From the IMG/VR virus record IMGVR_UViG_2917403263_000004, positions 1-37,272 of that record: a stretch of DNA of 37,272 nucleotides, one strand, 5' to 3'. The notes beneath the pieces were generated by a model. It worked only from the letters and a program-made list of their open reading frames with translations. It had not been told where the DNA came from and did not search any database. Position numbers and translations under genes: made by a program. Positions within the stretch are counted from its first letter, which is position 1; each line of letters begins with the position of its first letter. The stretch is from a virus. Its lineage: Duplodnaviria > Heunggongvirae > Uroviricota > Caudoviricetes. This document shows positions 23,774 to 35,854 of the stretch, one piece after another.

Positions 23774-23820
23774 CCCGGAACGGGCGCACAAAGAATTTGC
23801 GCACCCGTTCCGGGTTTTCT
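23774..23820 (+). terminator. Rho-independent terminator after the Q-ogr unit
   Basis: Roughly 13-bp stem CCCGGAACGGGCGC...GCGCACCCGTTCCGGG followed by TTTTCTT. The convergent Rrf2-like gene stop overlaps the T-run. Confidence 0.55.
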
Positions 23821-24176
23821 TATTCAATGGCAGACAACTGATAATTTGTGTCTTCCTGCAGGCTGGTTAAAGAAATATTATCCAGTGCAGCCAGAATAAC
23901 GTGCTGTGTATATAATCCGGAACATTTCATTGCCCGGACAATATCACCAACACTGTAATTTTCTTTTGTCGGGATATATCCACCACCCGGGCCGCGTGTG
24001 GCTTTTACCAGGCTACTTTCCCGTAAATATCTGAATATTTGCTCCAGATATGACAGTGAAACGGTTTCTTTGCTTAATTGCCGGAGTGAGATTGGCTTTC
24101 CGGTGTACTGTTTCACAAATTTAATCATTACCATAACTGCAACTGATGCACGCTGGCTTCCGGAATTATCTTTCAT
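23820..24176 (-). CDS. Rrf2-family winged-helix transcriptional regulator (short form without Fe-S cysteine cluster)
   Basis: Contains SLSYLEQIFRYLRESSLVKATRGPGGGY, the Rrf2 (IscR/NsrR-like) signature. Start set at ATG 24176 (GGAAG RBS), giving 118 aa. Confidence 0.55.
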   Translation of the reverse strand: MKDNSGSQRASVAVMVMIKFVKQYTGKPISLRQLSKETVSLSYLEQIFRYLRESSLVKATRGPGGGYIPTKENYSVGDIVRAMKCSGLYTQHVILAALDNISLTSLQEDTNYQLSAIE

Positions 24177-24190
24177 CGTGATTACTTCCA

Positions 24191-24466
24191 TTAATGGCAT
24201 AAATTGATGGAGTGGGTCAGTGAATAAAGAGGCATTACATTCCATCCCTTAGAGCGCCAGCTGTCTGCAACATCTTTACTCCTTGTTATTGCTGGTATTC
24301 CGATGCCGTTATTTACATGCATCCATGCCACTGGCTCTGCTTCCAGTGATGCAAGTGCGATTAACATATTGTGATCGTCTTCATCAAGACCGAACGGGAT
24401 GTCTTCGCGCCACGATTTAAACTTTGTGATTTTACGTTGTAGCCATTCTTTGGTAATGGTGGACAT
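24191..24466 (-). CDS. Hypothetical protein (91 aa)
   Basis: ORF in an operon-like array with 3-12 nt spacing. No recognisable motif. Confidence 0.4.
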   Translation of the reverse strand: MSTITKEWLQRKITKFKSWREDIPFGLDEDDHNMLIALASLEAEPVAWMHVNNGIGIPAITRSKDVADSWRSKGWNVMPLYSLTHSINLCH

Positions 24467-24468
24467 GG

Positions 24469-24666
24469 TTACTCCTGTTTTATTGGTCTGATACTGTTCA
24501 GAAGTAAGCGTCGCCGCATATTTGGCGCGCCCCAGCGGTAGCCAGTTTTTTTGTCGTAGGATTCAGAACGTCCGACAACCCAGGATGTTTTAGTTGAATG
24601 CAATTTCAAACGCTTTTCGCCATTCCTGGTGATAACAATTCCTGTATGAGTTTTTATCGCGCTCAT
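24469..24666 (-). CDS. Hypothetical protein (65 aa)
   Basis: Basic small ORF. ATGA overlap with the upstream Ea22-like gene. Confidence 0.4.
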   Translation of the reverse strand: MSAIKTHTGIVITRNGEKRLKLHSTKTSWVVGRSESYDKKTGYRWGAPNMRRRLLLNSIRPIKQE

Positions 24667-25256
24667 TTCGCAACACCTTTGCGAAGTTGGGCGGCAATCA
24701 ATTGGAGATATAGCGCGGATGTGCGATGATATTCCGCTGCTATCGGCGCCTCTTTCTCGCTGCGCTCCGCAAGCTGGTTTAACTCCGTGATGGCTATTTC
24801 CACACCCCGTGCCCGCACTATATTCTGGAAGGCGTCGGTGGCTGGCGTATCTGGCATGAGTGGTGATTCATCAGCAGGCGAGTACTCATCAGAAATGTCG
24901 GGCTGCTCCCCATCAAATACATAGCAACTGCCCCTGATAAACAGCTTCATTGCGGCATTCTCCGCTGCCAGCTCCGTGAAATTAGCCTCCAGCTCTGCAA
25001 TGCGTTTGCTTTGGGCTTCTCGTTCATCCAACAGAGCCCGCACTACTTCAGGGTTGAAAGCTGCGATATAACGAGCGTTGTTCTCTGCGTTTTTCTGTCC
25101 GTCAAAGCCGGGCCATTTGATAACGTCTTCACATCGTTTATCACCGGGCGTATGCACCGCATACGTACCAGTACCCGTCGAAATAAATGCGACCCATTCG
25201 CCCTGTGTTGCCTGTTTTGCTAACTCACGCAGTGCCTGATAGTTGATTTCGCTCAT
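24663..25256 (-). CDS. Ead/Ea22-like protein (lambdoid early-region accessory protein family)
   Basis: N-terminus MSEINYQALRELAKQATQGEW resembles the conserved Ea22-like N-terminus found in lambdoid prophages. 197 aa. Confidence 0.5.
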   Translation of the reverse strand: MSEINYQALRELAKQATQGEWVAFISTGTGTYAVHTPGDKRCEDVIKWPGFDGQKNAENNARYIAAFNPEVVRALLDEREAQSKRIAELEANFTELAAENAAMKLFIRGSCYVFDGEQPDISDEYSPADESPLMPDTPATDAFQNIVRARGVEIAITELNQLAERSEKEAPIAAEYHRTSALYLQLIAAQLRKGVAK

Positions 25257-25319: not shown

Positions 25320-25631
25320 TTATTCGGGGAATAACGCCCTGATATTTCCGGCCATCTGACTGGTTATCTGTGCGGTTGGCACTGGCTGTGACACGGGGCG
25401 TTCTGTCCTGGTTTGTGTCACGGATAACGCCTCATCGTCAGCCCATGCAGCCAGTCGGTAAGCCTCTGCTGGATTCATTTTCAGAAGTGCCAGCCCGGCC
25501 AGAAAAGCCACGCGTTGGCCGCTTTTGCGGGCTTCTGGTGTAAGGCTGTCCAGCCAGGCGCATGCTTCGCTTTCGTTCTTGACGGCCGCAGGCTTCAGAT
25601 AGAAACTTATCCGTCTGGTTGGTGTCGTCAT
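25320..25631 (-). CDS. parR: ParR-like centromere-binding adaptor protein
   Basis: 103 aa from ATG 25631 (AAGGAG RBS, 4 nt after the parM stop). RRISFYLKPAAV...GQRVAFLAGLALL...NIRALFP parallels R1 ParR (RRTIAFKLNPDV...NRAALTAGLALY...ILRSLFP, recalled from memory). Confidence 0.6.
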   Translation of the reverse strand: MTTPTRRISFYLKPAAVKNESEACAWLDSLTPEARKSGQRVAFLAGLALLKMNPAEAYRLAAWADDEALSVTQTRTERPVSQPVPTAQITSQMAGNIRALFPE

Positions 25632-25635
25632 TGGT

Positions 25636-26595
25636 TTACTCCTTGTCCATTGCGTACAGCCCATTAACCAGAGCAAACTGTGGCACCCCATCCGCGATGA
25701 AAGTCGCATTAACTCCGCAGGCTTCGCGGATAGCGGGTGCCACAATCTCCGCCCCGCCACCGACAACCATCACCCGCCCGTAACCCGAAAAACCCGCCAG
25801 CGCGCGGATCACGCGTTGTTTCAGTGTTTCCTCCTTTTCACGAATAACCGCCATCAGGCTGCCGTAATGCGCGTCATTGTGGATGTGCTGGCGCAGCCAG
25901 GCTTCATCATGGCGATGTTCGATAATGGTATTGGCGATGTGGTGACTGGTGCGCATACCGTTAGTGGCCATCACCGACAGTACGGCATCGGCCATCAGAG
26001 AAACGCCTACGTGTGGATCGCAAAACACCTGGCTGATACCTGCCAGTTGCCCCTGAACCTTTGCCACATCCAGCGTGGTTCCGCCCAAATCCACAATCAG
26101 CAGGGATTCAAACGGACTCATGTCAGCCAGTGCCTTAAAGCCAGCCGGAATGGATTCAGGCATAACCCGTACGTTACGGATAGTGAATGCTTCGCTGTTC
26201 TGGTACTCCACCGGGCGCATGACGTTCGCTTTTTTGCGGTTGATGTTGGCCATGTCCGGCTGTGCGTTTGTATCGAAATACTCGCTCAGTGGCAGGGTGA
26301 CAACCACATCCACTTCCTGTGGTGGGATGCCTGATTTGACCAGCGCGTGATGAATGGCAATGACATTCACATCACTGTACTGATATTGCGTGTCGGTCGT
26401 CTGGACAAAGCGATCGCTGACCGAATCAAAACCATAGCGCACACCATCAAGCATGTAGTTCGCGGGCTGCGTGCCACCGAACGGCGCAGACCATTCCGAC
26501 TTGAAGCTGTTCGGGCTGATGGCGTTGCGGCGTTCGCCGTTCTCAGTCCATGCCAGCTTGATGTTGGTGGAGCCGTCGTCGATACAAATTTTCAT
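25636..26595 (-). CDS. parM: ParM/StbA-family actin-like plasmid segregation ATPase
   Basis: 319 aa. N-terminus MKICIDDGSTNIKLAW...ISPNSFKSEW...QYSDVNVIAIHHALVKSGIP closely parallels R1 ParM (MLVFIDDGSTNIKLQW...ISPNSFKREW...[20 protein letters not shown], recalled from memory). Confidence 0.85.
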   Translation of the reverse strand: MKICIDDGSTNIKLAWTENGERRNAISPNSFKSEWSAPFGGTQPANYMLDGVRYGFDSVSDRFVQTTDTQYQYSDVNVIAIHHALVKSGIPPQEVDVVVTLPLSEYFDTNAQPDMANINRKKANVMRPVEYQNSEAFTIRNVRVMPESIPAGFKALADMSPFESLLIVDLGGTTLDVAKVQGQLAGISQVFCDPHVGVSLMADAVLSVMATNGMRTSHHIANTIIEHRHDEAWLRQHIHNDAHYGSLMAVIREKEETLKQRVIRALAGFSGYGRVMVVGGGAEIVAPAIREACGVNATFIADGVPQFALVNGLYAMDKE

Positions 26596-26846: not shown

Positions 26847-29326
26847 TCAGAAAGCACGGTAACAGGGGTTTTCATGGTGTTCTGGTCCTGCTGAAGTGTG
26901 GATGCCAGGCGTGCGGCGGCTTCGGGGTCTCGATGCCCCCAGCTGTTCCAGATAGCTGGCGACCGGGTTATGGCGGATCTCCGTGCTGCTTACGCCGTGA
27001 TTACGGCTCAGGCGCTGCCAGAGCTGCGTGATTCGGCTGTCCGGGCGGGTATCCGGTTTGCGTACAATTTCAAATCCCTGCGGTGCAATGATGCTGCCGT
27101 CAACGTACAGACTGCCGCCCCGTAACAGGTGCTGCATCTGCTGTTCACCGATATGCAGGCCGAGAGATTCAGCAGACTCCCGCCATTCTTTAGCGAGTAA
27201 CTCATGGTTATCAGGCAAAGGCCACGGTGTTGGCCGTTCTTTCGGCTGTTCTGTCCCGTTGTTGTCCGTTTCCTGTACATGGGGACAGTTATTGCCACGA
27301 GTCCAAGGGGCGGCAGGGCCGCCCTGAAGGTCAAAACCATTTTCGCGGGCGCTGTCTTCCGCTTCCGGTTTACGTCTTACCAGCTTCCAGTTATCCGGGT
27401 GCGTGCACACGCGGGAAGATTCCCCGATGAGCGGCGACCAGATCCCGTAAATCTGTACACTCTGCTCGCCGTAATCGTTCAGCTCATCTGCGAGGTCGTA
27501 GGCGGTGCGAATCAGGTAGTCTTTACGTGGAACAAGTACGCCGCCCTGTTTTTCAATGTAGGAGGCAAAACACCCGGCATCGGCGGCAGCGAGTACCGCA
27601 TCCATTGCGTCATCCTTCAGCCGTTGCGGGCCTTCCGGGTTGCGTGCCATCTGGCTGGCAAGGCGGCGCAGTTCACGCCATACCTGACGGGAGGGGATGC
27701 CAAAGAACTGGAACTGGCGGACCCGATGAAGGCGCGCCCAGCCGATGGCGCGCTCCACGCTCTCGGCCATTGATTTTCCGGTTTCGTGGTCAACGCGTGG
27801 TTTGCCCGTTTTCGGATCGATTCCATCCACGGCGCGGCTGTCCAGGTTTTTTCCGATGTAGGTGGCGATGTAGCTGGTTGGCGTGCCTTTGGAGCCGTCG
27901 ACGTACTCCACCTTAAAGCGCGGAGTAATATCATTGCCCAGCTCGTGGCGGTCTTCCTGAATGGCAATATCGCGGGTGATGGCCACGATGCTGTCGATTT
28001 CTTCCGGATGAGCAAAGACCATCATATGCCAGTGCACGGTGCCGTCATGGTGAGGCTCCACCGTGCGGATGCCATACCAGCGCAGGCCGTCGCGGTTCAG
28101 TTTTTGCGGACCGCCGCAAAAAACGTGTTAACCAGGTAATCGCTGGAGTCGCGCATGGTGGCCCCGTTCCATTTGGGATTCGGATGACCGTTCTCTGTTG
28201 TGGCGTGGTATTTTGACGGGCAGGTGACAGTCAGAAACACCGCTTTGTCGCCACGGGCTTCGGCCAGAAGTTCCAGTCCCTTCATGGTGGCCATCATTTC
28301 TGCCTTACGGTGAACCGGGTTACTTACTCCCGCGTAATACACTGTCTCGAGATCAATCGTGAAGCCGTCTTCGTTTTCCAGTTCGAAGCTCTTCAGGAAG
28401 TCGCGGGTTTTCTCGCGCTGTGCGCGAAACTCGCTTAACGCGTCCTGGCTCAGATAGGGTGATGTTTTTCTGGAAACCAGACAGGCGGCGCGGAGTTGTT
28501 CTTCTCTCCACTCGCAACGTAACAGCCACAGTTTGCGTTTCCACCAGTCCGCACAGGTCAGGCGGAGGATTGCGCCCGGCAGCAGTTCCGTATCCGGATC
28601 GCTCTTGTTCAGGGCTTCGTAATGTGGCGGCATGATGTGCAGGCGTAATGCGATACGAGCCAGCATCCGGTAAGCCTTCAACATTACATCCATGGTCAGC
28701 TCGCCATCTCTGGCACCAAAGCCATCGCAGAGTGTTTCGAAGGTGCTGCTGAACATCGCCGCGGTCATGGTGGCCAGCGTCTGTATCTGGTGCTTGTTGA
28801 GCTGCGGCAGGTAAAGCAAATCGTCCAGGCGTTCGCGCCCGGCAAGGGAGCGATAACCCGGTGTCAGCCAGCGTCCGTCAGTGCGATCCAGACGTTCGAA
28901 TATTTTGCGCAGGGTTCCGCGTGCATAGCGTTCCGCCTGCCAGCTCTTTTTGCCTTTCTGGCGATCGGCTTCCTGTTTTTTGCGCAGGAAGGAGAGGTGG
29001 CGAATAAGCGGATCGCGCAGATAGGACGGCAGCAGGCGCAGCGAGGCCATGGCTTCATCCACCGCGCCGCGTGCCTGCTTTCTGGCGTCTCCTGCCAGTG
29101 TGATGGTTTTGTCCTGTTTTTCCTGTGCGTCCAGGCTTTTATTAATCAGGTTGCCCAGCGGCGTGGCGGAGAACGCCGCATCAGCCATTTCCTGGCGGCG
29201 CTCGTTCTCTACCCGGTAGGCATCCAGCCAGGAGGAAAGCGCGGATTCAGGAGCGGGGATCCCCGTTCCTTCACGCCCCACTGCGTGGCGCGGTTGTTGC
29301 CAGTCCCTGATGTACTCTGCCGTCAT
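26847..29326 (-). pseudogene. Replication initiation protein gpA (rolling-circle HUH endonuclease), split by a 1-nt frameshift
   Basis: Two track ORFs (28097..29326 and 26847..28061) in different frames. The C-terminal part carries HUH and catalytic-Tyr motifs (GTVHWHMMVFAHPEE, YIATYIGK). The frames join if one A is added to the minus-strand A5 run (plus T5 at 28101..28105): ...FFAAVRKK-LNRDGLRWYGIRTVEPHHDG. Confidence 0.7.
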
Positions 29327-32361: not shown

Positions 32362-32640
32362 TTAATCTGCTTTCTGGGTTTCTGCTTTTGAATCCATGCA
32401 GATAATTTCGATGTATGGTTCATCGCTATTAATCTGACGTGCCTTTTCAGCTTCGCTAATGACTTCGCGTACAGTCTGGTACGGAAGCTCCACGAACAGT
32501 TGTGCGCCGCTGTCCAAATAAATATGAGTGGTTGCGTTTTTTGTCTGGGCCACACCATTAATAGCTGATGCACGCAATAACAGTTCACCGCGAGAATCAA
32601 TAAAGCGGATAAATACACCTTGAGTATGGTCTTTAGTCAT
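32362..32640 (-). CDS. Hypothetical protein (about 92 aa)
   Basis: Start set at internal ATG 32640, 8 nt after the upstream stop; the track ORF extends to 32700. Confidence 0.4.
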   Translation of the reverse strand: MTKDHTQGVFIRFIDSRGELLLRASAINGVAQTKNATTHIYLDSGAQLFVELPYQTVREVISEAEKARQINSDEPYIEIICMDSKAETQKAD

Positions 32641-32650
32641 AAAGCACCTG

Positions 32651-33001
32651 TTATAAATCAGCCTGTTTAATAAAACTCTGTCCACGCAGCAGACGATCAA
32701 CCGTGCGAAGCGCTTCGTATAATGTGAAATCCTGCCCGAACTGATTGTCGCCGCTGCTCAGAGCAAAAATGCGGTTTCCGGTAAACGGATTGCGCGGGCA
32801 TTTGTGGACCACGATTCCAGCCTTCTCAATCAGCCAGGTGTGCTCTCCGATTTGTTTTACAGCGTGGTCATCCGGTGTTGCGTGTGTTTCGCTCAGGCTG
32901 TAGCGAGAGCTGCTGCGTGATGCACTGGTGGCGAAACGGTTAGCGTGGCGTTCCGCCCCGTTGCGGAAGCGTTGCTGTGAAAAATTACGTCGTTGCTTCA
33001 T
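32651..33001 (-). CDS. Hypothetical protein (about 116 aa)
   Basis: Start set at ATG 33001 (AGGAT RBS); the track ORF extends to 33049. Confidence 0.4.
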   Translation of the reverse strand: MKQRRNFSQQRFRNGAERHANRFATSASRSSSRYSLSETHATPDDHAVKQIGEHTWLIEKAGIVVHKCPRNPFTGNRIFALSSGDNQFGQDFTLYEALRTVDRLLRGQSFIKQADL

Positions 33002-33143
33002 ACAAAAATATCCTGCTGCTGTTGTTAGTTTGTGCCGGGTTTTAGCCATGCCCGGCGCATGGTTTTGTGGTATTTTTCCACCGCCCGCAGTCTTGAAGGG
33101 GCTGTAAAGGGCGCGTGTTCAACCAACCACAAAGGAATAAAAT

Positions 33144-33326
33144 ATGTCCTATGATAAAAAGGTTATTGATGCGCTAAATGCGGCAATTTCTGTATTAGAG
33201 AAAGCGCCGGTTAATCCTCCTAATAAAGGAGAGCCATCAAATACCATTCGTAAGCTTATGCACGAAGTGCGTAAGCTCACGTTGGAAAAATATCCTCAGG
33301 CAAGTACATGGACTTTCCCTGAGTGA
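33144..33326 (+). CDS. Hypothetical small protein (60 aa), opposite strand to the surrounding early genes
   Basis: AAGGA RBS 8 nt upstream of the ATG. Ends exactly where the convergent 154-aa minus-strand gene ends. Confidence 0.3.
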   Translation: MSYDKKVIDALNAAISVLEKAPVNPPNKGEPSNTIRKLMHEVRKLTLEKYPQASTWTFPE

Positions 33327-33791
33327 TTATTTAACTCCCGTGCCGGAGATTTTCTCTGGCACATTTCCGACCTCAATAACCATGTTGTCACTGCTTAAAA
33401 TTTGTCGATAAAGCTCAAAGATTTCTTTGGCGGGGAAACGGAGCGCAACGCCGTATATTGGTTCTAAAATCATTCCAATCGTTTCTTTGACACCATCTCG
33501 ACAAAAATGACCGTATTCATCATCAGGATGCAGGGTAACATTTTTCAAATCTTCGCCATTCTGAAGCTTTGATTTAAATGCCATCAGGTCAGCGAACGTT
33601 CTGTGTAATTCGTGGTAGTCAATGCTGATTTCAACCTGTGGTTTGCCCGGAAAAACCAGCAAAAGCTTCTGGTGTGGCTTTTCGTTTTTCAGGGTTTCCA
33701 GTCGTTCCAGTAGTGCTTTGTCTTCGTAGTTTGTCATTTCAAAGCCCCAGCCACAGCAATCATGCGTCTCGCTATTCTTTCGGGCGAGCAA
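33327..33791 (-). CDS. Hypothetical early protein (154 aa)
   Basis: Second gene of the early operon. No motif recognised. Confidence 0.45.
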   Translation of the reverse strand: MLARKNSETHDCCGWGFEMTNYEDKALLERLETLKNEKPHQKLLLVFPGKPQVEISIDYHELHRTFADLMAFKSKLQNGEDLKNVTLHPDDEYGHFCRDGVKETIGMILEPIYGVALRFPAKEIFELYRQILSSDNMVIEVGNVPEKISGTGVK

Positions 33792-33818
33792 AGAATACTT
33801 CGACGCTCTTGATGTTGT

Positions 33819-34346
33819 TTATGATAAATCGCTCTCGTGATCTCTGCGTTTTTCCAGTTTTGAACTTCTACCCATATAAACCCGTTTTCCGTTAACGGTC
33901 TGGCAATCTTCTTTGTCGACTGGGGCGAACTTTCTTTTCTGGCGGTCATACGTCCAGTAACTTTTCCAGTTGTGCCATTCTGGGGGTTCGCACTCTGGTA
34001 GCTCATCAGCCAACTTGTCCCACTCTTTGGCGTTAAACCACCATACGCCGTCTGAGTTTTCATCTTCTGGATTAGTGCGTGTTTTATGTCCTGGCATTTG
34101 TCCGCGAGCGACGGCAGTGCGAAGTGCCAGTTTTGTTAGCCCGACATACGCAGCGCCTTTTTCTAGGGAGCAAAGCCCGGCGATTGGTCCGTCCAGCCGC
34201 AAAGTTGCCCCCTTTTTGTAGGTGCGGCTTTGCTTGCTTTCCTGATGTTCATCATCGTTGGCGGCATCAGCGGAATCGCTAATACCGTCGCTTTTCTGGG
34301 GGTGTTGGGTGTCAGATAACTCTTTATCGGCAATGATGTCCCGCAT
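33819..34346 (-). CDS. Cox-like excisionase / early-promoter regulator with C-terminal extension
   Basis: First gene of the leftward early operon, divergent from C. HTH-like GAAYVGLTKLALRTAVARGQMPG followed by GVWWFNAKEWDKL, resembling P2 Cox (AVRRMIDKGKLP ... EYWVYLPAWNNGLK). 175 aa versus 91 aa for P2 Cox. Confidence 0.5.
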   Translation of the reverse strand: MRDIIADKELSDTQHPQKSDGISDSADAANDDEHQESKQSRTYKKGATLRLDGPIAGLCSLEKGAAYVGLTKLALRTAVARGQMPGHKTRTNPEDENSDGVWWFNAKEWDKLADELPECEPPEWHNWKSYWTYDRQKRKFAPVDKEDCQTVNGKRVYMGRSSKLEKRRDHESDLS

Positions 34347-34407
34347 TTGTTATCCTCTTGCGTTGGTGCGCTTGTCGCGCCTTATGAATGTTTGTTTGGG
34401 TTTGTTA

Positions 34408-34427
34408 ACTTCACCTTGTGGTGAAGT
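34408..34427. promoter_or_regulatory. Candidate operator in the C/cox divergent promoter region
   Basis: Perfect inverted repeat ACTTCACC-ttgt-GGTGAAGT in the 103-bp region between the cox-like start (34346) and the C start (34450). Confidence 0.45.
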
Positions 34428-34449
34428 GAGAATAGAGGATACTCATCGT

Positions 34450-34791
34450 ATGGTGAACATGTCAAGAGATTACGCCAAAAAACTAAAGGCAATCAGAAAC
34501 GCGGAAAAACTTACACAATCTCAGTTTTCGCAAGTAACAGGGGTTTCTGTAGGGACTATAGGAAATTATGAGTCTGGATATAAACCTGCGCGAATTGAGG
34601 TTGTAGAAAAAGTAATCCAAGTCGAGCGATTCGAAAAATACACTATGTGGATACTTCACGACAAAACATTTCCCGCTGCCGGGCAGGTTGCCCCGGCTCT
34701 CTCTCTTGATGGCTCTATTCAGTCGGAGGGCGATCAGGTTTCAATCGGCATTACCCAAAAATCACCCCGATCAGGCCGCAATGTTGGCTGA
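34450..34791 (+). CDS. Immunity repressor (P2 C-like)
   Basis: MVNMSRDYAKKLKAIRNAEKLTQSQFSQVTGVSVGTIGNYESG ... FEKYTMWILHDKTFPAAGQVAPALSLDG parallels P2 C (recalled: ...QQLADLTGVPYGTLSYYESG...FTKYTLWFMTNQIAPESGQIAPALAHFG). Start set at internal ATG 34450. Confidence 0.75.
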   Translation: MVNMSRDYAKKLKAIRNAEKLTQSQFSQVTGVSVGTIGNYESGYKPARIEVVEKVIQVERFEKYTMWILHDKTFPAAGQVAPALSLDGSIQSEGDQVSIGITQKSPRSGRNVG

Positions 34792-34860
34792 CTTTACACA
34801 TTGAGCGGATTACATCTCGCAAGGAGTATTTAGTTAATTTATCCGTTGGATGGGCTAATC

Positions 34861-35854
34861 ATGTCGATTAAGCAACTCAAAGACGGACGTTATCAGGTCG
34901 ATGTCAGACCGCAGGGGGCGGAAGGAAAGCGGATTCGAAAAATCTTCGCCCTGAAATCAAAGGCTCAGGAGTTTGAGAAATATGTGTTGCAGAACTTCCA
35001 TGACAAGCCATGGCAGGCTAAGCCAGCTGATCAGCGGCGATTATCAGAGCTGCTTGATGCGTGGTGGATGCTTGACGGGCGTAATCAGGCTTACGGGGAT
35101 AGCTACAGGGTCAGGCTAGAGAAGGTTATTCGTGAAATGGGAGATCCTCGTGCCAGTCATATGACGCGAAAATTTATGCTCGAGTATCGGTCAGAGAAAT
35201 TACAGGCCGGATTAATGCCGTCCAGCATTAATCGTGATTTATGCGTTCTGTCTACCATGTTCACGGTGCTGATTGAAGCTGAGGTCTTTCACAATGCGAA
35301 CCCTGTACGCGGTATACGCAAACTGAAAGTTCAGAACACGGAAATGGCCTTTCTTTCTGATGATGAGATTGAACGGCTTCTTGAGCGACTGGAGGGGGGA
35401 TGCGCGTCGTGTTGCCATTCTGTGTCTTTCTACTGGTGCCCGGTGGAGTGAAGCATCGGAACTACGTGGAGAGCATATCGTTGGCAACCGGGTGACGTTT
35501 TTTAACACCAAAAACGGAAAATCCCGCTCAGTTCCTGTGGCGGATTCGGTTGTGCCTCTGATTAAAACCCGTCGGACGGGGTTGTTGTATCAGGTTAATT
35601 ATCTGGAGTTCCGGGAGATTCTTCAGGAGGTGAAACCGGATTTGCCGAAGGGGCAGGCTACGCATGTCATGCGTCATACATTTGCCACACACTTTATGAT
35701 GAATGGTGGAAATATTGTTACGTTACAACGAATCCTTGGGCACGCCACGATTCAGCAGACAATGACGTACGCTCATTTTTCGCCGGACTTCTTACAGGAC
35801 GCGATCAACTTTAATCCGTTGGCTGAAAGTGTCCATAAACTGTCCATCGATTAG
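34861..35854 (+). pseudogene. int: P2-type tyrosine integrase, frameshifted
   Basis: N-terminus MSIKQLKDGRYQVDV and C-terminal RHTFATHFMMNGGNIVTLQRILGHATIQQTMTYAHF parallel P2 Int. The reading frame shifts +1 at the G6 run 35394..35399 (track ORFs 34846..35451 and 35360..35854); a G5 run would restore ...LERLEG-DARRVAILCLSTGARW. Confidence 0.75.

What the first reader, a model, noticed from the sequence alone, without database searches (positions are those of the whole stretch)
33144..33791. Convergent gene pair inside the leftward early operon
A 60-aa plus-strand ORF with a good RBS ends exactly where a 154-aa minus-strand early gene ends. Its transcript would run antisense into the early operon. 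This could be a moron with its own promoter, an antisense regulator, or a two-gene exclusion module.
Basis: seen in the sequence. Interest (0 to 1): 0.4.

Follow-up and report, generated by a model that had tools for sequence, protein, structure and literature searches.

The report
Two-gene accessory cassette in P2-like prophage
The small plus-strand ORF is a real, conserved gene. Together with the early gene it meets tail-to-tail, it forms a roughly 0.8-kb optional cassette in a P2-like prophage, and it carries its own widely conserved promoter-like leader pointing against the phage's early operon; what it does is unknown.

Summary
A 60-aa plus-strand ORF (33144-33326, SD AAGGA) and a minus-strand early gene (33327-33737) have abutting stop codons (TGA|TTA). 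The minus gene is 136 aa from its ATG; the 154-aa TTG start is mechanical.

The window is a P2-like E. coli prophage beside dmsA. The small ORF is under purifying selection (dN/dS 0.13-0.14 against a Yersinia copy). It belongs to a small orphan family.

Both genes plus the intergenic leader form a roughly 0.8-kb indel. Close relatives have cox directly next to DUF4761.

Upstream of the ORF lies a conserved module: a hairpin/palindrome, an extended -10 (TGgTAnnnT), a stem-loop starting 6-7 nt later, a CA-rich leader and an SD. Its 27-nt core occurs in P2-like phages of at least ten enterobacterial genera. There it drives at least 14 unrelated cargo genes, nearly always tail-to-tail with an early gene and without a terminator.

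Best reading: a moron-like accessory cassette whose small gene has its own promoter, probably active in lysogens, firing into the early operon. No protein function could be assigned. Transcription is inferred, not shown. Interest is moderate.

The parts
33011..33818 (.). Accessory cassette of about 0.8 kb. It holds the promoter-like leader, the 60-aa gene, the 136-aa gene and that gene's upstream spacer, and sits between DUF4761 and cox.
   Evidence: Homology to cassette-free relatives ends at 33007-33010. In those relatives (L079, L081) cox and DUF4761 are 18-37 nt apart. L006 compared with L081 shows an 838-bp insert in place of 45 nt. GC is 0.415-0.423 against 0.523 for the whole window.
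33031..33062 (+). Conserved hairpin and near-palindrome (UGUGCCGGGU/GCCCGGCGCA stem; CCATGCCCGGCGCATGG dyad at 33046-33062). Its role is unknown. Candidates are an operator overlapping the -35/spacer region, or a plus-strand terminator-like insulator.
   Evidence: It is nearly invariant across E. coli, Yersinia and Salmonella loci although coding dS is about 1. The plus-strand RNA fold is -23 kcal/mol, z = -3.8, with 0 of 200 shuffles as stable; the minus-strand fold is weaker, z = -1.9. It is absent from the common L076-class cassette.
33068..33076 (+). Putative extended -10 promoter element, TGgTATTTT (TG at 33068-33069, hexamer at 33071-33076). The predicted start of transcription is about 33082-33085.
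   Evidence: TTGTGGTA is followed by a hexamer in which only A2 and T6 are invariant. Nine variants were seen: TATTTT, TAATTT, TACTAT, TAGGAT, TAGTTT, TATCGT, TAAGAT, TAATGT and TAGGTT. The same TTGTGGTATTTT is kept in the L076 class, which lacks the palindrome. The strict scan misses it because no -35 hexamer is present.
33079..33117 (+). Stem-loop at the predicted 5' end of the plus-strand mRNA. The GC-rich core CGCCC/GGGCG begins 6 nt after the -10 hexamer.
   Evidence: Most leader variants have a hairpin here despite very different stem sequences. GC-rich cores start 6-7 nt after the hexamer, and up to 10 nt in some. The base of the stem differs between E. coli and Yersinia in a compensatory way, CAC..GTG against CTTG..CAAG. 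G-U pairs give no strand preference: the plus strand was more stable in 15 of 31 cases.
33118..33143 (+). CA-rich unstructured leader and Shine-Dalgarno (AAGGA at 33132-33136).
   Evidence: A ..CCACAAGGA.. motif recurs in front of unrelated cargo genes.
33144..33326 (+). Gene for a 60-aa helix-loop-helix protein of a small orphan family with conserved TIRxL and KYP motifs.
   Evidence: dN/dS is 0.13-0.14. There are 15 clusters at 90% identity among 5.8 billion proteins. AlphaFold predicts two helices with mean pLDDT 69. It is homologous to the 63-aa WP_001761070 of P88-like prophages, at hhalign 95%.
33327..33737 (-). Gene for a 136-aa early-operon protein, an orphan alpha/beta family, lying tail-to-tail with the 60-aa gene.
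33819..34346 (-). Flank: Cox-family regulator/excisionase, 175 aa, the first gene of the early operon.
   Evidence: Pfam Phage_Cox 9.6e-7 and PHROG 23196 3.8e-103.
32651..33001 (-). Flank: DUF4761 gene, the next early gene after the cassette.
   Evidence: Pfam DUF4761 1.6e-69. It is present in 1392 of 5426 complete E. coli genomes.

Best explanation
The pair is an optional, moron-like accessory cassette of about 0.8 kb. It is inserted between cox and DUF4761 in the early operon of a P2-like (P88-type) prophage.

**Proposed expression.**
- The 136-aa gene is read with the early operon from Pe, during infection or induction.
- The 60-aa gene is read in the opposite direction from its own -35-independent, extended -10 sigma-70 promoter (TGgTATTTT, 33068-33076).
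- Its mRNA would begin at about 33083 with a protective 5' stem-loop, followed by a CA-rich leader and a good SD.

**Expected consequences.**
- Pe is repressed by C in a lysogen, so the small gene is most likely a lysogen-expressed gene.
- There is no terminator between the abutting stop codons. The small gene's transcript should therefore continue antisense into the 136-aa gene and cox. The early transcript, in turn, must run antisense through the small gene and over its promoter.
- The two transcription units should therefore oppose each other through collision, occlusion and antisense pairing, switching the small gene off when Pe fires.

**The wider slot.** The same promoter and leader form a conserved slot in P2-like phages across Enterobacterales, and different cargo genes are exchanged into it.

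**What is shown and what is inferred.**
- Shown: the ORF is a selected protein-coding gene; the cassette is an indel; the leader is conserved; the cargo is swapped.
- Inferred: promoter activity, expression in lysogens, and interference.
- Unknown: the biochemical function of both proteins. A small protein that counteracts or modulates the early 136-aa protein is my favoured but weak guess.
For: **A real gene.**
- Third-position bias is 26 of 40 differences (p = 4e-5), with dN/dS 0.13-0.14. It is the only open frame of the six.
- Intact copies sit in prophages at four different integration sites, with different C and Cox types, in E. coli and Yersinia.

**A cassette indel.**
- L079 and L081 have cox adjacent to DUF4761.
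- L006 compared with L081 shows 838 bp in place of 45 nt.
- P2 itself has cox and orf78 11 nt apart.

**Promoter-like module.**
- TTGTGGTA plus a TAnnnT hexamer, with only A2 and T6 fixed, is seen in 63 loci and 42 distinct leaders.
- The L076 class retains it although the upstream sequence is replaced.
- GC-rich stems start 6-7 nt after the hexamer.
- The SD is kept at a fixed distance before unrelated ORFs.

**Spread.**
- The 27-mer occurs in 51 viral contigs.
- It also occurs in genomes of Escherichia albertii, Xenorhabdus, Pectobacterium, Pantoea, Brenneria, Erwinia, Izhakiella and Kosakonia.
- It is in the isolated phages SEN4/5, vB_YenM_42.18 and vB_YpM_115/117.

**Cargo diversity and geometry.** There are 14 cargo clusters, with tail-to-tail offsets from -143 to +21 nt.

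**A diverged homologous pair.** A 63-aa plus 140-aa pair sits in the same slot in 270 of 5426 complete E. coli genomes, including ST131 EC958, and in isolated phages. The arrangement is therefore compatible with a viable phage.

**No plus-strand terminator.** None is predicted between 33327 and 34677.
Against: - There are no transcript data. The two-hexamer sigma-70 scan found no plus-strand promoter upstream of 33144, because there is no recognisable -35.
- In several leaders the outer base pairs of the stem lie upstream of the predicted transcription start. That is unexpected if only the plus-strand mRNA matters. Folding energies do not favour either strand: the plus strand was more stable in 15 of 31 cases.
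- The near-perfect conservation of the upstream palindrome is not explained by a simple constitutive promoter. It could instead reflect a function on the early transcript, or recombination at a module junction.
- A classical moron has its own terminator, and none is present here.
- Nothing links either protein to any function.
Confidence: 0.6

Rival explanations
1. The two genes are a dedicated two-protein system, such as a toxin or early effector (136 aa) with a lysogen-expressed antidote (60 aa). It would act in superinfection exclusion, abortive infection or control of an early host-takeover function. On this view the convergent layout exists to couple the two genes.
For: - The two genes are gained and lost as one unit.
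- Diverged versions of both families co-occur in the same layout: 60 aa with 136 aa, and 63 aa with 140 aa.
- In SEN5 a 60-aa homologue is again tail-to-tail with an early gene, but there the pair lies before cox.
- The C-terminal tail of the minus-strand gene changes whenever the plus-strand cargo changes.
Against: - Pairing is not exclusive. The 60-aa family also sits opposite a DUF4754-type 141-aa protein and other unrelated partners.
- The 136-aa N-domain sits opposite ECs1072-family and 78-aa cargo as well.
- Some slots have cargo but no minus-strand partner; in L057 the C repressor gene follows directly.
- There are no PADLOC, Pfam, NCBIfam or PHROG hits.
- Where the two genes overlap by up to 50 nt, the tail and the cargo are inherited together regardless of function.
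Confidence: 0.25
2. The primary function is regulatory. The plus-strand promoter would be an analogue of 186 pE or lambda pRE. It sits inside the early lytic operon and fires back through cox and Pe towards C and int. It would help to establish or stabilise lysogeny by antisense RNA and transcriptional interference, with the ORF secondary.
For: - Position and orientation match 186 pE, a promoter convergent with pR on the lytic transcript and pointing back towards the repressor gene (PMC7708051).
- C (34450-34791) and int lie downstream on the same strand, with no predicted plus-strand terminator before 34678.
- In some relatives the slot lies directly upstream of C (L057 and L027; SEN5).
- A conserved dyad overlaps the -35/spacer region, as an operator or activator site would.
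Against: - The ORF is under strong purifying selection, and the slot always supplies an SD and a coding cargo. That is not expected of a purely regulatory transcript.
- No 186-CII-type (or any HTH) domain was detected in the neighbouring early genes that were scanned.
- The gene next to the element differs between phages (DUF4761, cox, orf78, gpB-like), so no candidate activator is conserved.
- The cassette is absent from many close relatives that are presumably competent for lysogeny.
- About 1.1 kb of untranslated antisense RNA before C would be exposed to Rho (inference).
- In 186 itself, high pE activity did not measurably reduce pR (PMC7708051).
Confidence: 0.15
3. The plus strand is not meaningfully transcribed. 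On this view the conserved non-coding block works on the leftward early transcript, as a processing, stabilising or anti-polarity structure before the next early gene. Alternatively it is a conserved linker at the junction between the immunity and replication modules, where recombination occurs. The ORFs downstream of it would then be incidental.
For: - The element always lies 10-30 nt upstream, in the leftward sense, of the RBS of the next early gene.
- Homology between P2 and vB_YpM_115 breaks exactly at this junction.
- Stem pairs extend beyond the predicted plus-strand start, and there is no strand bias in stability.
- No Rfam family and no strict promoter was found.
Against: - The selection signature lies in the plus-strand reading frame.
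- SD and start codons are kept at a fixed distance in front of 14 unrelated cargo families.
- The part shared by both leader classes is exactly the TGnTAnnnT motif, not the hairpins.
- The upstream hairpin folds markedly better as plus-strand RNA, z = -3.8 against -1.9.
Confidence: 0.08

Closest known systems
Morons of temperate phages (autonomous promoter-gene-terminator units inserted between genes that are adjacent in related phages; Juhala/Hendrix concept, from my own knowledge)
   Same: - The cassette is extra DNA between two genes, cox and DUF4761, that are adjacent in close relatives.
- Its GC content is lower than in the window overall.
- It has its own promoter-like element.
- It is variable among relatives.
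- It is probably expressed from the prophage.
   Different: - No terminator is present.
- The unit holds two convergent genes, one of which belongs to the early operon.
- It lies inside the early lytic operon and fires against it.
- The promoter and leader are themselves a conserved, reusable slot.
P2-like accessory and defence hotspots (Z/fun; tin/old between gpA and gpQ; a minor 'integrase-primase' hotspot) - Rousset 2022 PMC9122126; PMC13586616; bioRxiv 10.1101/2024.10.15.618418
   Same: - The position in the P2-like backbone is fixed.
- Cargo turns over rapidly between conserved flanks.
- At least 14 cargo families occur here.
   Different: - The location differs: it is the cox-proximal junction of the switch and replication modules.
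- Cargo genes are tiny, 32-160 aa, and none is a recognised defence protein.
- A conserved cis-regulatory leader comes with the slot.
- The papers I read mention only a generic integrase-primase interval. None describes this element.
Coliphage 186 pE / lambda pRE establishment promoters, and the 186 pR-pL convergent promoter pair (PMC7708051; PMC5001618)
   Same: - A promoter is embedded in the early lytic transcription unit and points back towards the repressor and int genes.
- It is convergent with the lytic promoter, so transcriptional interference and antisense RNA are expected.
   Different: - No CII-like activator was found.
- The promoter looks self-sufficient because of its extended -10.
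- The transcript encodes a conserved protein immediately after its start.
- The cassette is dispensable in many relatives.
Convergent prophage toxin/antisense pairs with overlapping 3' ends (type I toxin-antitoxin systems such as txpA/RatA and bsrG/SR4 of Bacillus prophages; from my own knowledge)
   Same: - Two convergent transcription units in a prophage have overlapping 3' ends and no intervening terminator.
   Different: - Both partners here encode conserved soluble-looking proteins.
- Neither is a small hydrophobic toxin.
- No non-coding antitoxin is evident.

Membership tests
Moron | Inserted between two genes that are adjacent in related phages | tested here: met
   cox and DUF4761 are 18-37 nt apart in L079 and L081. 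L006 has an 838-bp insert where L081 has 45 nt. P2 cox and orf78 are 11 nt apart.
Moron | Own promoter | tested here: inconclusive
   A conserved TGgTAnnnT extended -10 is followed by a 5' hairpin and an SD. The strict -35/-10 scan is negative, and there are no transcript data.
Moron | Own terminator | tested here: not met
   The stop codons abut. No plus-strand terminator-like site is predicted between 33327 and 34677.
Moron | Base composition deviating from the surrounding genome | tested here: met
   GC is 0.415 and 0.423 for the two genes, against 0.524 for DUF4761, 0.502 for cox and 0.523 for the window. Some other small early genes are also low, at 0.43-0.46.
Moron | Expressed from the repressed prophage | not testable with these tools
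   This needs strand-specific RNA-seq or a reporter assay in a lysogen.
Known anti-phage defence systems (PADLOC-DB v2) | A protein matches a defence-system model | tested here: not met
   Neither window protein gives a hit at E up to 1. Alternative cargo and partner proteins give only noise-level hits.
P2-like variable hotspot | Diverse, unrelated cargo at one position between conserved backbone features | tested here: met
   There are 14 cargo clusters and 14 partner clusters behind the same 27-mer in 63 loci.
186 pE / lambda pRE-type establishment promoter | Leftward or rightward promoter inside the early lytic operon, directed at the repressor gene | tested here: met
   The geometry fits. 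The putative promoter at 33068-33076 points towards C (34450-34791) and int.
186 pE / lambda pRE-type establishment promoter | Dependence on a CII-type activator encoded on the lytic transcript | tested here: not met
   Pfam scans of the neighbouring early genes show only DUF4761, DUF4754, Cox, HTH_11 and GPA, and no CII family. The adjacent gene differs between phages. Not every small early ORF was scanned.
Type II toxin-antitoxin | Co-directional two-gene operon with recognisable toxin or antitoxin domains | tested here: not met
   The genes are convergent, not an operon. Neither has a Pfam or NCBIfam domain.
Rfam RNA families | The conserved non-coding element matches a curated covariance model | tested here: not met
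   Only one chance-level match was found in 32500-34900, at E = 4.8 and elsewhere in the region.

The most novel reading that the evidence does not exclude
The conserved hairpin, extended -10, 5' stem-loop and CA-rich leader together form a previously undescribed portable expression slot of P2-like phages (Peduoviridae) across Enterobacterales. It would place small accessory genes antisense to the early lytic operon, so that their expression is tied inversely to Pe activity through transcriptional interference. [quoted passage not shown] The invariant palindrome would be the operator of an as yet unidentified conserved regulator.
Probability: 0.25. Interest if true: 0.65.

Novelty: new variant of a known kind. 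Interest (0 to 1): 0.45.

Why it matters
**Why it would matter if true.** P2-like prophages are very common. The DUF4761 backbone alone is in 1392 of 5426 complete E. coli genomes, and these prophages are a recognised reservoir of accessory and defence genes. The two classical hotspots (Z/fun and tin/old) have been mined heavily. This cox-proximal slot has not been described in the papers I could search.

**What is distinctive.**
- The slot comes with a strongly conserved cis-regulatory leader. That leader gives a simple sequence handle, the 27-mer, for harvesting its cargo.
- Its cargo is so far entirely uncharacterised. It includes a small-protein family and membrane-protein pairs.
- Its antisense placement inside the early operon is a natural test case for convergent-promoter interference in a lysis-lysogeny switch.

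**If the promoter is inactive,** the finding reduces to an ordinary pair of orphan phage genes.

Tried and rejected
**Family and structure searches that led nowhere**
- Pfam, PHROGs, PADLOC and NCBIfam on both proteins gave nothing.
- The same libraries on ten alternative cargo and partner proteins gave only the uninformative NCBIfam name 'ECs1072 family' and noise.
- An exhaustive profile search of 1.84 billion representatives with the 136-aa family gave six hits. About three are credible and all are orphans.
- PDB sequence profiles gave nothing below E = 0.04.
- The afdb50 library was unavailable.
- The 60-aa model is a helix-loop-helix and is too simple for fold searching.

**Sequence-element searches**
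- Rfam found no family in the region.
- The strict sigma-70 and terminator scan found no plus-strand promoter upstream of 33144, and did not list the 33031-33059 hairpin.
- A literature search for the element's sequence found no paper. Searches on P2-like hotspots, morons and 186 pE gave context only.

**Ideas considered and rejected or left open**
- I used G-U pairs and folding energies to decide which strand's RNA carries the leader stem-loop. The result was inconclusive: the plus strand was more stable in 15 of 31 cases, p = 0.27.
- An sRNA ending at the upstream hairpin: rejected, because no promoter is conserved upstream and the upstream context differs between phages.
- A P2 Ogr-type late promoter (TGT-N12-ACA), sigma-54, a LexA box, a DnaA box, or lambda boxA/boxB: no match by eye.
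- The cassette as a common feature of E. coli: this allele is in only 1 of 5426 complete genomes, and the palindrome-type leader is in 18. A diverged homologous cassette is, however, in 270.
Full report
**Context**

The window is a P2-like prophage of E. coli integrated next to dmsA. Reading right to left around the finding, the layout is:
- int (plus strand);
- a C-type HTH repressor (34450-34791, plus strand);
- the early operon on the minus strand, beginning with a 175-aa Cox-family gene (33819-34346);
- the two genes of the finding;
- DUF4761 (32651-33001), DUF4754 and other small ORFs, and replication gene A.

This rests. 'Leftward early operon' is therefore right.

**Observation**

The plus-strand ORF runs from 33144 to 33326. 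It encodes 60 aa and has an AAGGA Shine-Dalgarno at 33132-33136, 7 nt before the ATG. It ends in TGA at 33324-33326. The minus-strand gene ends in TAA at 33327-33329, so the stop codons abut.

The 154-aa figure comes from the first in-frame TTG. Relatives and RefSeq start the gene at the ATG at 33737, giving 136 aa.

**Is the small ORF a gene?**

Yes.
- The word-index search found five clusters of full-length 60-aa homologues in E. coli and Yersinia enterocolitica. A profile search raised this to 15 clusters.
- I fetched copies from prophages at four different chromosomal sites: dmsA, the mazEF-ppa region, a glutaminase locus, and Yersinia ushA/cydA. They have different C and Cox types. In every one the ORF is intact and lies tail-to-tail with an intact homologue of the 136-aa gene.
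- Against the Yersinia copy, 26 of 40 nucleotide differences are at third codon positions (p = 4e-5), dS is about 0.97 and dN about 0.14, giving dN/dS 0.13-0.14.
- It is the only open frame of the six. Four other frames give dN/dS above 1, and the remaining antisense frame (0.20-0.25) is closed by 2-3 stops.

**It is a cassette**

The DUF4761 backbone is in 1392 of 5426 complete E. coli genomes. Some close relatives have cox directly next to DUF4761, 18-37 nt apart (L079, L081).

Aligning a cassette-bearing relative with the same Cox type (L006) to L081 shows 838 bp in place of 45 nt. Homology of the window to cassette-free relatives ends at 33007-33010.

The inserted unit therefore holds the non-coding leader, the 60-aa gene, the 136-aa gene and that gene's upstream spacer, roughly 33011-33818. 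Both genes have the lowest GC in the neighbourhood, 0.415 and 0.423 against 0.523 for the window. P2 itself has no such insert, because cox and orf78 are 11 nt apart.

**The leader**

The most unexpected result is the 142-nt spacer upstream of the small ORF.
- It is almost invariant between E. coli and Yersinia, although synonymous sites in the adjacent genes are nearly saturated.
- It is shared with a relative (L002) whose plus-strand gene is entirely different, an ECs1072-family protein of 155 aa. The break in homology lies right at the start codon.
- A 27-nt core, CCATGNCCGGCGCATGGTNTTGTGGTA, occurs in 51 IMG/VR viral contigs.
- It occurs in reference genomes of Escherichia albertii, Xenorhabdus, Pectobacterium, Pantoea, Brenneria, Erwinia, Izhakiella and Kosakonia.
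- It occurs in the isolated phages Salmonella SEN4/SEN5, Yersinia vB_YenM_42.18 and vB_YpM_115/117.

Most copies have the same anatomy:
1. TTGTGG, followed by a hexamer in which only the second A and the sixth T are fixed. The variants are TATTTT, TAATTT, TACTAT, TAGGAT, TAGTTT, TATCGT, TAAGAT, TAATGT and TAGGTT. This is the signature of an extended -10 promoter (TGnTAnnnT).
2. A stem-loop whose GC-rich core starts 6-7 nt after the hexamer, and up to 10 nt in some. Its sequence differs between lineages; a minority of leaders are short and lack it.
3. A CA-rich stretch with an SD (..CCACAAGGA..).
4. In 62 of the 63 loci, a plus-strand ORF beginning 61-107 nt after the start of the 27-mer core; the one exception (L051) has only a 14-codon ORF there.

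The common E. coli cassette class (L076) has a different upstream sequence but keeps TTGTGGTATTTT, the stem-loop and the SD. The part shared by both classes is therefore exactly the promoter-like motif.

In the window the elements are:
- TG at 33068-33069;
- TATTTT at 33071-33076;
- predicted start of transcription at about 33082-33085;
- stem-loop at 33079-33117, with core CGCCC/GGGCG;
- a stem base that differs from Yersinia in a compensatory way.

A 5'-terminal hairpin is a known mRNA stabiliser; that point rests on established knowledge, not on a test here.

**Caveats on the promoter**

- The strict two-hexamer scan finds no promoter, because there is no -35.
- Outer stem pairs lie upstream of the predicted start in several lineages.
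- Folding energies do not say which strand's RNA matters.
- Promoter activity is therefore inferred, not shown.

**The upstream palindrome**

Positions 33031-33062 form a 10-bp hairpin that includes the dyad CCATGCCCGGCGCATGG. As plus-strand RNA it is unusually stable, z = -3.8 with 0 of 200 shuffles as stable. A U-rich tract follows it. The minus-strand fold is weaker, z = -1.9.

The hairpin overlaps the position where a -35 would be. It could be an operator, or a terminator-like insulator against upstream plus-strand transcription. I cannot decide between these, and the L076 class lacks it. Rfam has nothing here.

**The slot and its cargo**

Across 63 loci the plus-strand cargo falls into 14 unrelated clusters:
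- the 60-aa family, which includes diverged 58-59-aa forms and SEN5_34;
- ECs1072-like proteins of 151-160 aa;
- proteins of 78, 71, 68, 62 and 58 aa;
- a small peptide followed by a predicted two-helix membrane protein of about 159 aa;
- others.

The gene facing the cargo falls into 14 clusters too. Offsets between the two stop codons range from -143 (overlap) to +21 nt, and many are exactly 0. No cargo matches a known defence or other family.

**Is it a specific pair?**

The evidence is mixed.

In favour:
- The two genes move together as one indel.
- A diverged version sits in the same place in 270 of 5426 complete E. coli genomes, including ST131 EC958, and in isolated phages. It consists of the 63-aa WP_001761070, at hhalign 95% to the 60-aa family, and a 140-aa partner, at hhalign 72% (E = 3.5e-5) over the full length of the 136-aa family.
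- In SEN5 a 60-aa homologue again faces an early gene, but there the pair lies before cox rather than after it.
- The C-terminal tail of the 136-aa family changes with the cargo it faces.

Against:
- The 60-aa family also faces unrelated proteins.
- The 136-aa N-domain also faces unrelated cargo.
- Some slots have no facing gene at all.

**Protein function**

Function is unknown for both proteins.
- The 60-aa protein is predicted to be a helix-loop-helix, pLDDT 69.
- Exhaustive profile searching finds only a handful of orphan relatives.
- PDB sequence profiles find nothing.

**Mechanism I commit to**

This is a moron-like two-gene accessory cassette.
- The 136-aa gene is expressed with the early operon.
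- The 60-aa gene is expressed from its own extended -10 promoter, most likely when Pe is repressed, that is, in the lysogen.
- There is no terminator between the two genes, and none is predicted on the plus strand before 34678. The two transcription units must therefore run into each other.
- The early transcript crosses the small gene and its promoter to reach DUF4761 and the replication genes. That this is tolerated is shown by isolated, viable phages with the same layout.
- The small gene's transcript is antisense to the 136-aa gene and cox.

This resembles the convergent pR/pE and pR/pL arrangements of coliphage 186 (PMC7708051). Unlike those, it has no CII-type activator, and its transcript carries a coding cargo.

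My confidence by step:
- real gene and cassette: about 0.9;
- own promoter: about 0.7;
- expressed in the lysogen: about 0.55;
- functional protein pair: about 0.3.

**Novelty**

Morons and P2 hotspots are known kinds. The literature I could search describes the Z/fun and tin/old hotspots, a hotspot near the repressor and tail genes, and a generic minor 'integrase-primase' defence interval. It does not describe this cox-proximal slot, its conserved leader or the small protein family. The element's sequence appears in no paper in the library.

I rate it a new variant of a known kind, of moderate interest.

Noticed in passing
window 33031-33077; also L011 2501-2545, L012 2500-2550, L013 2501-2540, L066-L075: A hairpin/palindrome plus TTGTGGTA core of about 45 nt is almost identical in P2-like phages of at least ten enterobacterial genera. 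It is far better conserved than the adjacent coding sequence. Two overlapping, mutually exclusive hairpins are possible (GCCGGG..CCCGGC and CCATGC..GCATGG), followed by a U-rich tract. No Rfam family matches and its role is unknown.
   Followed up: partly
window 35385-35400 (int, 34861-35854): The integrase reading frame is broken by one extra G in a G-run, relative to the intact 330-aa integrase of a 97%-identical relative (L001). It splits into ORFs 34846-35451 and 35360-35854. This is either a decaying prophage or a homopolymer sequencing error.
   Followed up: partly
window 28061-28106 (replication gene A, 26847-29326, minus strand): Gene A is also split into two ORFs, 28097-29326 and 26847-28061. 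The frame changes next to a T5 run. tblastn with an intact A protein switches frame at about 28100-28106. This is a second frameshift in an essential phage gene.
   Followed up: partly
window 25320-26595, minus strand: The region between gene A and the portal gene is the classical tin/old hotspot position. Here it carries a ParM/StbA actin-like partition ATPase (25636-26595) and a Plasmid_stab_B protein (25320-25766). It also carries an Ead/Ea22-like protein (24663-25256) and an Rrf2-type regulator (23820-24245). A plasmid-type partition system in an integrated P2-like prophage is unusual.
   Followed up: no
window 33727-33818 compared with L001 4128-4333: Relative to the otherwise 97%-identical L001, the window lacks about 117 bp between cox and the 136-aa gene. 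It also has a different N-terminus (MTNYEDK against MNHKNK). Both junction types recur in other genomes.
   Followed up: partly
window 34450-34791 compared with L001 4966-5307: The C repressor differs substantially from that of L001 (MVNMSRDYAKKLKAIRNAEKLTQSQF.. against MVILSIDYAKKLRQIRKAEGLTQKQF..), although the cassette is 97-98% identical. The cassette is therefore shared across likely different immunity types.
   Followed up: no
L045, L048, L057, L011, L062, L067, L074, L075 (downstream of the 27-mer): An alternative cargo in the same slot is a two-gene operon. It encodes a 30-40-aa peptide (MSDxDKFHVPRKPAP..) followed by a protein of about 159 aa with two predicted membrane helices. It has no Pfam or PADLOC match. 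In L057 and L027 the C repressor gene follows directly on the same strand.
   Followed up: partly
L002 2544-3570; L029, L037, L042, L040: ECs1072-family cargo always overlaps, by 50 nt on the opposite strand, the end of a conserved C-terminal domain (..DEELI.FLE..NEFINSVVYRQ..NP). That domain is fused to at least two unrelated N-terminal domains, and in L040 it stands alone.
   Followed up: no
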